A stretch of 64,000 nt of DNA, taken from NCBI RefSeq assembly GCF_053078305.1, contig NZ_CP166879.1; one strand, written 5' to 3'. The position numbers and the translations under genes were made by a program. Below, piece by piece: positions 52,819-57,113 of the stretch; position 1 is the stretch's first letter; every line of letters starts with the position of its first letter. The notes under the pieces were generated by a model. The model searched no databases. It was not told the origin of the DNA and saw nothing but the letters and a program-made list of their open reading frames with translations.

Positions 52819-54027
52819 TCAGGCTGTCGCCTGAATCATTTCGGTGGGTTCCTGCTTCAACGGGCGGCCTGACTGCACCATCTCTCCACAGGCAAGAACG
52901 GCGTGCCCCGCCGCTAAAATGTTACGAGCGCCATTTACATCGGCGTTCGCTGTATATCCACATACCTGGCATCTGAATTTACTTTGTGACAGGCGGTTCT
53001 CTTTCGCTGTATGACCACAGTACGCGCAACGCTGGCTTGTATACGCTGGCGGAACAGCAAGCACCTGACCGCCACGCCAGAGCTGCTTGTACTCAAGCTG
53101 GCGGCGCATTTCATACCAGCCCTGATCCAGTATCGAACGGTTTAAACCTGATTTTGCCCGGACATTGCGCCCCGGCTGGCTGACCGTACCCGCTGCTGAC
53201 TTTGACATGTTGCTGACCTTCAAATCCTCAATGACTATCATTGCGTGGTTTTTGCTGACGGCCGTTGTGACTTTGTGAAGGTAGTCCCTGCGGATATTTG
53301 CGATACAGGAATGCAGTCGCTGTATTTTGCGTTTCTGCTTCTGCCAGTTGTTGCTGAATTTGACCTTGCGGCTTAACTGTCGCTGAAGTCTCGCCAGCGT
53401 CTTCTGGTTTTTCTGAAAACTGTTTACAGGCTCAAAGACTGTGCCATCTGACAGCGTGGCGAGTTTAGCCACGCCAGCATCCAGCCCGACCATTGATGCT
53501 GAAGGGTGAGCCGGAGTGGATACTTCACTTTCTGTCTGAATACTGATGTACCACTTACCGCAGGACTGGCTGACAGTGACATTTTTCACAACACCCGTGA
53601 CCTGACGGCTATTCCGGTAGCGCATCCAGCCCAGTTTCGGCAGAAAAATACGGCTGTTTTCCTGATCGAGCTTAACGCCCTGCGGGTAGCGGAATGCATC
53701 ATTCTGTCCCCGCTTTTTGAATCGGGGAAAAGCAGCCCGCTTCCGGAAGAAGTTTTTGTAAGCCCGCTCAAGGTCTTTCAGTGACTGTTGCAATGGCTGT
53801 GAGGGAGAATCTTTAAGCCATTGCGTTTCAGTGGCATTTTTCCACTCAACCAGCCAGGAAGCCATTTTCCCGTAAGGGATGTATTTATTACCGGCCTCAT
53901 GATTCTCATTCTGACGTGCCAGAGCACGATTGAAAACGAAACGACATGCGCCTGCGAAGCGCCTCATTTCACACTCCTGTTGACCACCTGGTCTTAACTG
54001 GAATTTAAATGCCTGTAATCGTTTCAC
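52819..54027 (-). CDS. insQ: IS609 TnpB (OrfB; RuvC-like, zinc-finger; RNA-guided endonuclease family)
   Basis: 402 aa; C-terminal [37 protein letters not shown] zinc-finger/RuvC-III region typical of TnpB. Confidence 0.85.
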
Positions 54028-54034
54028 AGGTCAA

Positions 54035-54541
54035 ATGATACTTTGGTCTGTGAAAAAAGAAACCGATATCCGGCGTGGAAGGCATTGTGTTTTCCTGATG
54101 CATGTTCACCTGGTCTTTGTCACCAGATACCGACGCCAGATTTTTGACCATGACGCGACAGAAAAACTACGCACTTACTTTTCAAATGTATGTGCTTATT
54201 TTGAAGCTGAACTGGTTGAAATGGATGGCGAACCAGATCACGTCCATTTGTTAATTAACTAACCTCCCAAACTGGCGATATCCAGTCTGGTAAACAGCCT
54301 CAAAGGCGTATCGGGTAGGTTACTGCGACGAGATCGACCAGATATTGCAGTCAGGTATTACTACAAAGGCGTTTTGTGGAGTCCTGGCTATTTTGCCAGT
54401 AGCTGCGGAGGTGCGCCAATATCCGCCATCCGTCAATACATTGAACAACAGCAAACACCTGGTCAGGTGGAAAACCGCGCCTTATATCCCCGCCCTGAAG
54501 GATGGGGTTTTACGGCGCACCGGATAAAAAGCGCCATCTAA
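54035..54541 (+). pseudogene. insP: IS609 TnpA (HUH/Y1 transposase) with premature in-frame TAA at 54260–54262
   Basis: The frame reads ...HVHLLIN* then continues in the same frame as PPKLAISSLVNSLKGVSGRLLRRDRPDIAVRYYYKGVLWSPGYFASSCGGAPISAIRQYIEQQQT..., typical of IS200-family TnpA. Confidence 0.75.
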
Positions 54542-54551
54542 CGATGGCGCG
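54520..54551 (-). terminator. Rho-independent terminator of ydcL (gcgccatc taac gatggcgc followed by a U-tract on the minus-strand transcript)
   Basis: Hairpin plus tttttatcc on the reverse strand directly after the ydcL stop. Confidence 0.6.
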
Positions 54552-54558
54552 TCTGGAA

Positions 54559-55227
54559 CTACTTTTTGTTAACGTCAAACATGGTGGCATCGGTCGCCAT
54601 GTCATCAATAACTTGTTTAATATTTTCGAAAGCCATTGGCGTACTTTCGTTATTCAGGTCTTTACCTTCGCCCTGACGAACGACTTTGATAACCGGTTTA
54701 TTAGTCGCTGCATCAATCAGCTCACCTTCAAAATAGAGGCGAGTATCCATGGTACGGTGGCCTGTAGCCATTTGCGTCCCCGCAACCACTAATGCAACAG
54801 GAACCACTTCATAGAATTGCAGCCCTTCTTTGCTGGTATCTACACCGGTAATGGCCCCACGGAAAATCAGACTACGCGGCCCAGCGGTGGTAACCACTGG
54901 TTTACGCTGCGCTATCGCTTCTTTCATTTCGGTGTTGGTATAGTTCAAAATTTTATCCAGAACTTTCTGCCCTACCTGGGTAGAAGGTTTTGGTACCGGA
55001 TAATAAGTGATTGGGTTCCAGACGATGCTGTCATATTTGCTTTGATCAAAACTCGGGTCTACCCAACGTAAAACAGGTTTACCTGTTGCTGAGGTTGTTT
55101 CTTTTAAATCAGAGTAATTGTTTAAAAAACCAGAATATTTATCTGGCTGGGTGATTTTAGAGGCACAACCAGACAGAGCCAACAAGCCGCATAAAGCTGC
55201 AACTTTCGCAAATGATGTGGTACGCAT
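54559..55227 (-). CDS. ydcL: Lipoprotein YdcL
   Basis: 222 aa; lipobox ...LALSGC-ASK. Confidence 0.88.
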   Translation of the reverse strand: MRTTSFAKVAALCGLLALSGCASKITQPDKYSGFLNNYSDLKETTSATGKPVLRWVDPSFDQSKYDSIVWNPITYYPVPKPSTQVGQKVLDKILNYTNTEMKEAIAQRKPVVTTAGPRSLIFRGAITGVDTSKEGLQFYEVVPVALVVAGTQMATGHRTMDTRLYFEGELIDAATNKPVIKVVRQGEGKDLNNESTPMAFENIKQVIDDMATDATMFDVNKK

Positions 55228-55325
55228 GAATAGTTTCCTGAGATGATTATATTACTTTTTAAGTTATAGCAAAAAGCGCCGCTTCGTGTTGTGGCAAAAA
55301 AAGTGTTGGTGAAAATAAATTTTTT

Positions 55326-55369
55326 TAGCCCCTTTTCAGACGACATAGTCAATGCCGCAAAAGGGGCTA
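55326..55369. other. Inverted repeat tagcccctttt / aaaaggggcta (11-bp arms, 22-nt spacer) upstream of ydcL
   Basis: Seen in sequence in the ydcL–tehB intergenic region. Confidence 0.4.
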
Positions 55370-55530
55370 AGTCAATCATCAGTAGTTAAATTTCAGTAAG
55401 TTAAGCTGCTAAAAAACTTCGACTACTGTGATTAATTTCACATCCCTTCGATAAAAAATATGCTTACCGAAAAGAAGGACAGTAAACCATCTCAGCGTGG
55501 GGAATTTTCACGCGCTTTGTTCTTACCGGG

Positions 55531-56124
55531 TCATTTTTTACGTGCCAGCATCGTGGCGAAACGCAGTTTAATACGATTACCGTTGGCGTCGGTGCGGTGC
55601 AGCTCGCCGACGTCTTCATTGTATTTCACCATCTCCCAGCCTTCGTAATATCGACGTAATTCTCCCTCTTTGAAGGCAAACGGGAAGCCGACGGTACATG
55701 GATAATCAGCGGTATCCATCGCCGCCACAATCAGGTTGTAACCGCCAGGTTTAGTGCAACGTTGCATATTGGCAATCAGCCCTGGGATGGTTTTAGCCTC
55801 AAGGAACATCAGCACCACAGTCGAAAGAATAAAATCGTACTGTCCAGCAAATGTGAGGTTATTCAGATCAACGACCCGGGTGTGTAAATTATCCAGATTT
55901 TCAATAGATTTAATGCGCTCGACGTTGGCGATACTCATGGCATTTTTATCCCATGCGTCAACATCATAACCATTGGCTGCCAGGTAAAGACTGTTACGAC
56001 CATTGCCACAGCCCAGATCCAGCGTTTTACCCGGTTTAACCACTTTCACCGCTTCCAGTACTTCAGAGTGTGTGCGGGTTAATTCATATTTATCAGTAAA
56101 ATAATTTTCGTCACGAATGATCAT
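55531..56124 (-). CDS. tehB: Tellurite methyltransferase TehB (SAM-dependent)
   Basis: 197 aa; SAM motif [16 protein letters not shown]. Confidence 0.92.
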
Positions 56125-57113
56125 TCTTTGTCCTCTGCTTTCATTAAAACGGCGCGCTCGGTTCTGACTAACAATTTTCCCTGCATCAGAAGCGCAAAAG
56201 TACGGATGAGCAGTATTGCAATAATAAAATTGGTAAAGATAAACAGCGGCACCGCCAGCGTATGGAAAAATCCATTATCGCTGCCACTCCCCAGATGCAA
56301 ACCGGTGGTTGCCAGTGCAGATACGCCGAACGAGAAACTCCAGAATGAAGCATTAAATGGCTGGGAGAGATACCAGGGCATCAGACGTAGCATAAACAGC
56401 AGTTGCAGCAGTCCATAACCGAAAAGCATTTTCGCCAGCGTGTCACCCTCGCCGCCGTTGACGCTCAGCCAGGCACTACAGGCCACCAGCGCAGGAGCGA
56501 GTTGAATGCCGAGTGATGTCCGCAGTGCCGTGGGTAATTCTCCCGAACTGCGCAGACGCTGCAAGATCACCGGTTCAAGGCTTAGCCATGAGAAAACGCC
56601 TGCGCCTAAAAACACCAGACCGGCGTCGGTGTAGCCCAACGCACCACAGGCCATTGCGCTGATAAAGTTGTTGGCAACTGTCGGCAGATACAGTCCAGGC
56701 GTGGTAGCTTCTTCAGGGTGAGATCCGCGCCATAATCCCGCAGTTTGCCAGGCGGCATAAGCCAGTTGCACCACGACACCAAAACTGAACAGGCACACCG
56801 CCAGTGGGCGAAACCACGGAACAAAACCAATCGCCACCAGCATCGTCGTTGCCGGAAACAAACTCACAAAACTGCTCAGCACTGGATGGCGAACTTCCGC
56901 CAGCACGCTATGCGGAAAGCGTATGAGTCGGGTAATAAATGCGCTAGTCAATAATCCCCAGATGATCATCGCCAGAATCACCAGCCCATCCCCTAACCAG
57001 TGGCTGACCTGCCAAACCTGGCTGGCATAGCGCCAGGCAAATCCCATCCCTATCGTCCCCAACACAATACCAAAGTAGCCTGCCGGCAAATTGAGCACTT
57101 TATCGCTCTGCAT
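56121..57113 (-). CDS. tehA: Tellurite resistance / dicarboxylate-exporter-family membrane protein TehA
   Basis: Begins [29 protein letters not shown]; 330 aa; overlaps the tehB start. Confidence 0.9.

What the first reader, a model, noticed from the sequence alone, without database searches (positions are those of the whole stretch)
55326..55369. Inverted repeat with a long spacer in the ydcL upstream region
The 11-bp arms tagcccctttt / aaaaggggcta are separated by 22 nt. No U-tract follows on either strand, so it is not an intrinsic terminator. It could be an operator for a dimeric regulator or a structured RNA element.
Basis: seen in the sequence. Interest (0 to 1): 0.2.

Follow-up and report, generated by a model that had tools for sequence, protein, structure and literature searches.

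The report
RNA 3'-end hairpin between tehB and ydcL
The inverted repeat is real and conserved, and it is most likely an ordinary RNA stem-loop marking where transcripts coming from the tellurite-resistance genes tehAB end, just upstream of the ydcL promoter; it is probably not a protein-binding operator.

Summary
The repeat exists as described. The perfect arms are 12 bp (55325-55336 / 55359-55370) with a 22-nt spacer, which is far more than chance gives. It lies in the 303-bp spacer between tehB (stop codon 55533-55531) and ydcL (start 55227), both on the minus strand.

On the minus (sense) strand the spacer adds an inner 7-bp stem. The RNA folds at -26 kcal/mol (z = -7.4), against -19 on the plus strand.

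It is single-copy and present in 5406 of 5426 complete E. coli genomes. It is kept across the genus Escherichia, with G.U-compatible changes and one compensatory change.

In other Enterobacteriaceae a genus-specific hairpin sits at the same place, just 5' of the conserved ydcL promoter block. In several genera that hairpin is a canonical intrinsic terminator.

A published genome-wide map for E. coli K-12 (PMC10687069) lists RNA 3' ends 2-6 nt after this stem. The tail is A-rich rather than U-rich, and a C-rich, G-poor stretch follows.

This matches the known class of stem-loops that protect the 3' ends of Rho-terminated transcripts. Rho dependence itself was not tested. The operator reading is not supported. 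The feature is ordinary and of low interest.

The parts
55325..55370 (-). The complete stem-loop as RNA on the minus strand. It has a 12-bp outer stem (5' arm 55370-55359, 3' arm 55336-55325), a 3-nt bulge (55339-55337), a 7-bp inner stem with G.U pairs (55358-55352 / 55346-55340) and a 5-nt loop UGACU (55351-55347).
   Evidence: -26 kcal/mol, z = -7.4, and 0 of 200 shuffles fold as well. One search compares sense and antisense folding.
55316..55326 (-). Zone equivalent to the mapped RNA 3' termini of E. coli K-12 (NC_000913.3 + strand 1502359-1502368, dominant positions 1502361, 1502363 and 1502365). This is 2-6 nt 3' of the last paired base, inside the A-run and at the start of TTTATTTT.
   Evidence: PMC10687069, Supplementary Data 2 and 3. 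Coordinates were converted. There is a 1-nt indel in the A-run between K-12 and the window.
55246..55323 (-). C-rich, G-poor stretch immediately 3' of the hairpin (15 C, 8 G; C/G = 1.88). It is a candidate Rho-utilisation region and overlaps the ydcL promoter block.
   Evidence: 78-nt sliding windows. The published model places rut sites just downstream of protective stem-loops (PMC6061677 abstract). That this stretch is a rut site is inference.
55228..55311 (-). Conserved ydcL promoter and leader block. It contains a T-run followed by GCCACAAC (55300-55288), an extended -10-like TGCTATAAC (55271-55263), TATAAT (55251-55246) and the Shine-Dalgarno sequence AGGAAA. It marks the downstream boundary of the hairpin.
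   Evidence: 95% mean pairwise identity across Escherichia lineages. TTGCTAT is invariant across nine genera. An RpoS-holoenzyme SELEX peak lies in the tehB>ydcL spacer (PMC5493296).
55531..56124 (-). tehB coding sequence, the upstream gene whose transcript most likely ends at the hairpin.
   Evidence: RefSeq annotation of matching E. coli records.
54559..55227 (-). ydcL coding sequence (DUF3313 lipoprotein), the downstream gene.

Best explanation
The inverted repeat encodes an RNA stem-loop on the minus strand, which is the sense strand of tehA-tehB-ydcL. The stem-loop defines the steady-state 3' end of transcripts entering the spacer from tehAB. It has no U-tract, so it is not a canonical intrinsic terminator. 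The most likely mechanism has four steps. RNA polymerase reads through the hairpin. Rho loads on the C-rich, G-poor RNA just downstream and terminates transcription in or beyond the ydcL promoter region. 3'-to-5' exonucleases then trim the RNA back to the base of the stable stem. The stem then protects the tehAB message, and the unit as a whole keeps tehAB transcription from running into ydcL, which has its own sigma-S-type promoter. What is shown: the hairpin, its strand bias, its conservation, the position of RNA 3' ends in K-12, and the lack of a U-tract. What is inferred: the origin of the transcripts in tehAB, Rho dependence, and exonuclease trimming.
For: (1) The fold is strong and favours the sense strand: -26 kcal/mol, z = -7.4, against -19.3 on the plus strand. 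In E. coli and one cryptic lineage the sense strand is 5.6-8.6 kcal/mol more stable than the antisense strand.
(2) RNA 3' termini in E. coli K-12 map to + strand 1502359-1502368, with signal 0.81-0.94. The authors' own fold of this hairpin is -25.4 kcal/mol and their longest U-run is 4. The stem ends at 1502359.
(3) No 3' terminus is assigned to tehB anywhere in that supplement. No terminator-like site exists on the minus strand elsewhere in the spacer.
(4) The element is single-copy and present in 5406 of 5426 E. coli genomes.
(5) Across Escherichia the stem is retained with G.U-compatible changes and one compensatory pair, C-G / U-A / U.G. The arms are 84-90% identical, against 66-75% for the flanking spacer.
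(6) One lineage (L003) deleted about 127 nt after tehB but kept the hairpin.
(7) In other genera a genus-specific hairpin sits at the same position, 75-110 nt before the ydcL ATG. In Leclercia, Yokenella, Enterobacter, Klebsiella and Raoultella it has the form of a canonical intrinsic terminator for whichever gene lies upstream.
(8) The T-tail score is 0.29, and C/G is 1.88 in the 78 nt after the stem. [quoted passage not shown]
Against: Rho dependence and trimming were not tested here. No bicyclomycin or exonuclease-mutant data could be retrieved.
The held part of the Adams et al. 2021 Term-seq supplement lists no 3' end at 15022xx-15024xx. The site is therefore not seen in every dataset that could be checked.
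The TRS authors' automated label is 'premature in 5' UTR of ydcL', not 'tehB primary'.
The 5' ends of the RNAs that stop here are unknown, so they could start inside the spacer rather than at the tehA promoter.
The sense-strand bias in folding energy is absent in three non-coli lineages.
Covariation is thin: one pair with changes on both sides among eight sequences.
Confidence: 0.6

Rival explanations
1. The hairpin is a premature terminator or attenuator in a long ydcL leader, or the 3' end of a short independent RNA. In this reading a promoter inside the spacer, possibly dependent on the CRP-like site at 55427-55442, starts transcripts that mostly stop at the hairpin.
For: The TRS tables label the terminus 'premature in 5' UTR' of ydcL. 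A perfect TGTGA-N6-TCACA palindrome lies 56 bp upstream of the hairpin. It is expected 0.05 times per window and is 93% conserved across Escherichia, while its flanks are 66-75% conserved.
Against: The label follows from a rule. Unknown 5' UTRs are set to 100 nt, and primary termini are accepted only up to 200 nt after a stop codon. This end is 96 nt before the ydcL ATG and 206 nt after the tehB stop. No sigma-70-like promoter is called on the minus strand between tehB and the hairpin. The candidate -10 hexamers at class II spacing from the CRP-like site are poor and not conserved (my reading of the alignment). The conserved extended -10 and the RpoS SELEX signal lie downstream of the hairpin. 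Lineage L003 lost the CRP-like site but kept the hairpin.
Confidence: 0.17
2. The arms are a DNA operator: a regulator, dimeric or tetrameric, binds the two arms and controls ydcL or tehAB.
For: The symmetry is perfect over 12 bp, and the repeat sits upstream of a gene with a conserved promoter. An ATTGACT motif occurs twice on the minus strand, just 5' of the stem (55377-55371) and in the loop region (55354-55348), and is invariant in Escherichia.
Against: The half-site centres are 34 bp apart, which is unusual for a dimer. The site lies about 70-115 bp upstream of the predicted ydcL start and about 1.7 kb downstream of the tehA start codon. Arm changes are pair-preserving (U.G, or C-G to U-A) and include a 1-nt bulge in L005 and extension of the stem inward in L003. 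These fit selection on a helix, not on a recognition sequence. Other genera have unrelated hairpin sequences at the same position. RNA ends map exactly at the stem. No literature record of a binding factor was found.
Confidence: 0.05
3. The hairpin is a U-tract-less or decayed intrinsic terminator that still acts without Rho, through hairpin-induced pausing or termination possibly aided by NusA or NusG, using the distal TTTATTTT.
For: Canonical terminators occupy this position in related genera. The stem is very stable. A U-rich run starts 6-8 nt after it (6 in K-12, 8 in the window). The mapped ends at 1502361-1502368 reach into the first U residues.
Against: The first 6-7 nt after the stem are A, and the T-tail score of 0.29-0.99 is far below those of the neighbouring genera. 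The dominant ends at +2 to +6 are closer to the stem than the usual 7-9 nt (established knowledge of intrinsic termination). Citrobacter and Salmonella have the same A-tail arrangement with no U-run at all.
Confidence: 0.12
4. The palindrome has no function and is conserved only by recent common descent.
For: All Escherichia lineages are close relatives. Covariation support is weak, with one compensatory pair.
Against: The arms are better conserved than the flanking spacer. The hairpin was retained through a 127-nt deletion next to it. RNA ends map to it in vivo. The positional equivalent exists in every genus examined.
Confidence: 0.06

Closest known systems
[quoted passage not shown]
   Same: A stable stem-loop with no U-rich tail. 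Steady-state RNA 3' ends lie immediately downstream of the stem. A C-rich, G-poor stretch follows directly.
   Different: Rho dependence and trimming by PNPase or RNase II are not shown for this site. It lies 161-206 nt after the stop codon and directly abuts the next gene's promoter.
Canonical intrinsic (Rho-independent) terminators, as found at the same position upstream of ydcL in Leclercia, Yokenella, Enterobacter, Klebsiella and Raoultella
   Same: A G+C-rich hairpin between a co-directional upstream gene and the ydcL promoter. It occupies the same position relative to the conserved promoter block.
   Different: There is no U-tract. The tail is seven A (five in K-12) followed by UUUAUUUU, with a T-tail score of 0.29 against 2.5-5.4. 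The stem is longer (12 + 7 bp) and has a bulge.
REP/BIME intergenic palindromes that stabilise upstream mRNA
   Same: An intergenic hairpin without a U-tract that can block 3' exonucleases.
   Different: It is not repetitive: one copy per genome, with no similarity to the REP consensus (comparison with the REP consensus is from memory).

Membership tests
Protective 3' stem-loop of a Rho-dependent transcript | Energetically stable stem-loop on the transcribed sense strand | tested here: met
   -26 kcal/mol, z = -7.4. -17 to -26 kcal/mol in all eight Escherichia sequences.
Protective 3' stem-loop of a Rho-dependent transcript | Steady-state RNA 3' ends immediately downstream of the stem | tested here: met
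   Published termini at K-12 1502359-1502368; the stem ends at 1502359. The data are for K-12, not for the strain of the window.
Protective 3' stem-loop of a Rho-dependent transcript | No uridine-rich sequence directly after the stem | tested here: met
   T-tail score 0.29-0.99. No terminator-like call on the minus strand.
Protective 3' stem-loop of a Rho-dependent transcript | rut-like C-rich, G-poor RNA just downstream | tested here: inconclusive
   C/G = 1.88 in 55323-55246, the highest value in the scan of 55700-55103. Composition alone does not prove that Rho loads there.
Protective 3' stem-loop of a Rho-dependent transcript | Read-through increases when Rho is inhibited; 3' ends shift in PNPase/RNase II mutants | not testable with these tools
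   The supplements of PMC6061677 are not held.
Canonical intrinsic terminator | G+C-rich hairpin with a short loop | tested here: met
   12-bp outer stem with four consecutive G-C pairs, plus an inner stem and a 5-nt loop.
Canonical intrinsic terminator | U-tract starting 0-2 nt after the stem | tested here: not met
   The tail is AAAAA(A)UUUAUUUU.
Operator of a dimeric transcription factor | Half-sites conserved in sequence, at a spacing compatible with a dimer, near a promoter | tested here: not met
   Centre-to-centre spacing is 34 bp. Changes preserve pairing, not sequence. Other genera have unrelated sequences at this position.
Operator of a dimeric transcription factor | A protein shown to bind the site | not testable with these tools
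   No report was found in searches for ydcL or tehB.
Repetitive extragenic palindrome (REP/BIME) or other intergenic repeat | Many copies per genome | tested here: not met
   Median 1 place per genome, maximum 2. One occurrence in the window.
Described RNA family (Rfam 15) | Match at or above a family's gathering score | tested here: not met
   The best hits are 17-23 bits against gathering scores of 50-79, with E-values of 0.57-9.8.

The most novel reading that the evidence does not exclude
The hairpin may be more than a passive 3'-end cap. It could be a regulated stop in a CRP-dependent transcript that starts inside the spacer: a leader or attenuator for the sigma-S lipoprotein gene ydcL, or a short non-coding RNA. 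In that case the invariant AUUGACU motif, present both 5' of the stem and in the loop region, might be a protein- or RNA-recognition element.
Probability: 0.1. Interest if true: 0.4.

Novelty: new member of a known kind. Interest (0 to 1): 0.12.

Why it matters
It matters little beyond annotation. It gives the tehAB operon of E. coli a defined 3' boundary. It also corrects an automated label in a published 3'-end catalogue, 'premature terminus in the ydcL 5' UTR', which results from distance cut-offs. Finally, it shows one position in Enterobacteriaceae where canonical terminators in some genera are replaced by U-tract-less hairpins in Escherichia, Citrobacter and Salmonella. That makes it a small natural case for studying turnover between intrinsic and factor-dependent 3'-end formation.

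Tried and rejected
Rfam scan of 54500-56200 at E-value up to 10: only sub-threshold noise.

Repeat element: rejected, because the hairpin is single-copy.

Small ORFs across the repeat: a 32-aa ORF on the plus strand at 55291-55389 and an 85-aa ORF on the minus strand at 55122-55379. Both are rejected because a 1-nt indel in the A-run between this window and K-12 shifts the frame.

Promoter inside the hairpin using the TTGACT motifs as -35 elements: no acceptable -10 at 16-18 nt (my reading; none called).

Literature look-ups that gave nothing for tehB or ydcL:
- Adams 2021 Term-seq supplements.
- SMRT-Cappable-seq.
- Romero 2014.
- No supplements are held for PMC9023263, PMC6061677, PMC11092163 and PMC4161252.
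- A phrase search for 'tehB-ydcL' found no paper.

My first count of structure pairs used a structure string shifted by one column because of a gap, so I rely on the RNAalifold table instead.

I looked by eye for a marbox in the ydcL promoter, because ydcL is down-regulated in a rob-truncation strain. I found no convincing match.

Full report
**Where it is.** The window is Escherichia coli. A 451-bp query across the site is 100% identical to O157:H7 strain PV15-279 and matches 5412 of 5426 complete E. coli genomes. RefSeq annotation of the matching records, and of K-12 MG1655, places the site in the spacer between tehB (tellurite methyltransferase) and ydcL (DUF3313 lipoprotein). In the window both genes are on the minus strand: tehB at 55531-56124 and ydcL at 54559-55227. 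The repeat is therefore both 'downstream of tehB' (161 nt after the stop codon) and 'upstream of ydcL' (97 nt before the ATG). No feature is annotated under it in any listed record.

**Check of the observation.** Perfect complementarity is 12 bp, at 55325-55336 and 55359-55370, with 22 nt between the arms. Markov simulations of the window give 0.1 such 12-mers on average. The core pattern with up to 3 mismatches is expected 0.05 times and occurs once. The tail on the minus strand is a run of seven A (the first two pair in the stem), then TTTATTTT. On the plus strand the tail is AGTCAATC. So there is no U-tract directly after the stem on either strand.

**Anatomy as RNA.** On the minus strand, which is the sense strand of both flanking genes, the 22-nt 'spacer' is not a loop. 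It forms a further 7-bp stem (GCGGCAU/AUGUCGU, with two G.U pairs), a 5-nt loop and a 3-nt bulge. The 56-nt RNA folds at -26 kcal/mol, with z = -7.4 and 0 of 200 shuffles folding as well. The plus-strand RNA reaches -19.3 kcal/mol. The sense strand is 5.6-8.6 kcal/mol more stable than the antisense strand in E. coli proper and in one cryptic lineage. The two strands are about equal in three other lineages.

**Distribution and conservation.**
- The 86-nt region is single-copy (median 1 place per genome) and present in 5406 of 5426 E. coli genomes, so it is not a repeat family.
- A scan of one genome per species with YdcL as query returned 80 loci.
- All Escherichia lineages recovered carry the hairpin: E. 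coli, four divergent or cryptic lineages and E. albertii.
- In an 8-sequence alignment the GCCCCUUUU/AAAAGGGGC core is almost invariant. The changes seen are U.G-compatible. The outer pair switches between C-G, U-A and U.G. One lineage extends the stem inward (CC/GG) and another carries a 1-nt bulge.
- Covariation is thin: one pair has changes on both sides.
- The arms are 84-90% identical across lineages. The spacer after tehB is 66% identical, the segment before the hairpin 75%, and the ydcL promoter block 95%.
- Lineage L003 has lost about 127 nt between tehB and the hairpin but kept the hairpin.

**Comparison across genera.**
- The block from the A/T tract to the ATG is the conserved ydcL promoter and leader. 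The motif T-run-G-Y-CAC and an invariant TTGCTAT (in most genera TGCTATAAC, an extended -10-like element) align in nine genera.
- Just 5' of this block, 75-110 nt before the ATG, most genera have a strong hairpin of unrelated sequence.
- In Leclercia and Yokenella the pattern scan calls it a terminator. Enterobacter, Klebsiella, Raoultella and Trabulsiella have hairpins with T-tail scores of 2.5-5.4.
- This holds whether the upstream gene is tehB or a different gene.
- In Citrobacter, Salmonella and Escherichia the hairpin is followed by an A-run instead (scores 0.06-0.99), and no terminator is called.
- The element is thus the positional equivalent of the upstream gene's terminator, but without a U-tract.

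[quoted passage not shown] Its Supplementary Data 2 and 3 list a 3' terminus on the + strand at 1502359-1502368.
- The dominant positions are 1502361, 1502363 and 1502365, and the signal is 0.81-0.94.
- The accompanying fold sequence is exactly this hairpin (-25.4 kcal/mol), and the longest U-run is 4.
- In K-12 the hairpin spans 1502315-1502359, so the ends lie 2-6 nt after the last paired base.
- The authors' label is 'premature in 5' UTR' of ydcL. Their methods show that unknown 5' UTRs are set to 100 nt, and that primary termini are accepted only up to 200 nt after a stop codon.
- This end is 96 nt before the ydcL ATG and 206 nt after the tehB stop, so the label follows from the cut-offs.
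- No terminus is assigned to tehB anywhere in those files.
- The stored text of Supplementary Data 3 is cut. I infer from its size that the cut falls within the first sheet, LB RNAtag-seq, so I could not check whether the authors' Term-seq sheets also list the site.
- The held part of the Adams et al. 2021 Term-seq supplement has no entry there.

[quoted passage not shown] They end, at steady state, immediately downstream of stable stem-loops not followed by U-rich sequence. These structures protect against PNPase and RNase II. The rut sites lie immediately downstream of them. Here the stem is stable, the tail is A-rich, and the ends lie 2-6 nt after the stem. The 78 nt directly after the stem have the highest C/G ratio of the region, 1.88. 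I therefore favour a protective 3' stem-loop of the tehAB transcript, with Rho-dependent termination downstream and trimming back to the stem. The origin of the RNA in tehAB, the Rho dependence and the trimming are all inferred. A factor-independent, U-tract-less terminator remains possible.

**The ydcL promoter.** ydcL appears to have its own promoter downstream of the hairpin. The evidence is the conserved extended -10 and a genomic-SELEX peak of RpoS holoenzyme in the tehB>ydcL spacer, at old K-12 coordinate 1500460 (PMC5493296). By my conversion of coordinates this is about 18 bp upstream of the ATG. No sigma-70-like promoter is called on the minus strand upstream of the hairpin. This argues against the hairpin being a ydcL leader element, but it does not exclude that.

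**The operator reading.** The half-site centres are 34 bp apart, and the site is far from either promoter. The arms evolve by pair-preserving changes, unrelated hairpins occupy the position in other genera, and RNA ends map to the stem. I found no report of a factor binding there.

**Verdict.** The feature is an ordinary member of a known kind, already present as an unnamed row in a published 3'-end catalogue. Interest is low.

Noticed in passing
window 55427-55442: A perfect CRP-core palindrome, TGTGA-N6-TCACA. It is the only one in the 64-kb window (expected 0.05). It is 93% conserved across Escherichia lineages while its flanks are 66-75% conserved, and it is lost in lineage L003. It lies 56 bp from the hairpin and about 180 bp from the predicted ydcL start, and no convincing partner promoter was found on either strand.
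   Followed up: partly
window 55377-55371 and 55354-55348 (minus strand): ATTGACT occurs twice, 23 nt apart: once just 5' of the stem and once in the inner stem and loop. Both copies are invariant in all eight Escherichia sequences. It is unexplained. It does not make a usable -35/-10 pair.
   Followed up: partly
window 55437-55464 and 55495-55513 (plus strand): A promoter-like site (TTCACA-16-TATGCT) overlaps the CRP-like site. About 30 nt further on lies a terminator-like hairpin, GCGTGGGGAATTTTCACGC followed by GCTTTGTTCT, antisense to the tehB 3' UTR. A Shigella flexneri study predicted an sRNA, 'Ssr15', on this strand in the same spacer, but did not mark it as validated by RT-PCR (PMC4782007).
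   Followed up: partly
window 55228-55311 (minus strand): The ydcL promoter block is 95% identical across Escherichia, and TTGCTAT is invariant across nine genera. It contains the extended -10-like TGCTATAAC with C at -13, consistent with a sigma-S promoter. ydcL is down-regulated in a rob-truncation strain (PMC7537768). No marbox was found by eye.
   Followed up: partly
L087 (E. coli ET210) about 460-520; L083 (E. coli STE15) 201-321: In ET210 the region downstream of the 3' arm is replaced, directly after AAAAGGGG, by sequence annotated as IS1 family transposase. In STE15 a 36-nt duplication lies inside the hairpin. The hairpin may be a hot spot for rearrangement.
   Followed up: no
L003 (Escherichia sp. 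MOD1-EC7003) 2326-2501: The tehB-ydcL spacer is 174 nt instead of about 300. The segment with the small tehB-proximal hairpin and the CRP-like site is missing, but the large hairpin and the ydcL promoter are intact.
   Followed up: yes
window about 54515-54558 (minus strand), downstream of ydcL: ydcL has a canonical terminator (GCGCCAUCGUUAGAUGGCGC followed by UUUUUAUC), with a mapped 3' end in K-12 at 1503155-1503164. The TRS paper lists ydcL among 38 genes whose read-start density differs between the 3' UTR and the coding sequence. For ydcL the 3' UTR is higher in two of three libraries, which the authors read as a hint of a 3'-UTR-derived RNA.
   Followed up: no
window 52819-54262: An IS609-like element sits next to ydcL, as in K-12: a 402-aa InsQ/TnpB-like ORF on the minus strand and a short tnpA-like fragment on the plus strand. 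It is absent at this place in O157:H7 PV15-279, where ydcO directly follows ydcL. The window is therefore not that strain, even though the spacer is identical.
   Followed up: no
L008-L027 (Citrobacter, Salmonella) about 2340-2420: The tehB-proximal hairpins of Citrobacter and Salmonella also lack a U-tract and are followed by an A-rich run and AAATTGTG. Several have a U-run in the loop (GCAUUUUUUUGUGC). Loss of the U-tract therefore seems shared by the Escherichia, Citrobacter and Salmonella group.
   Followed up: partly
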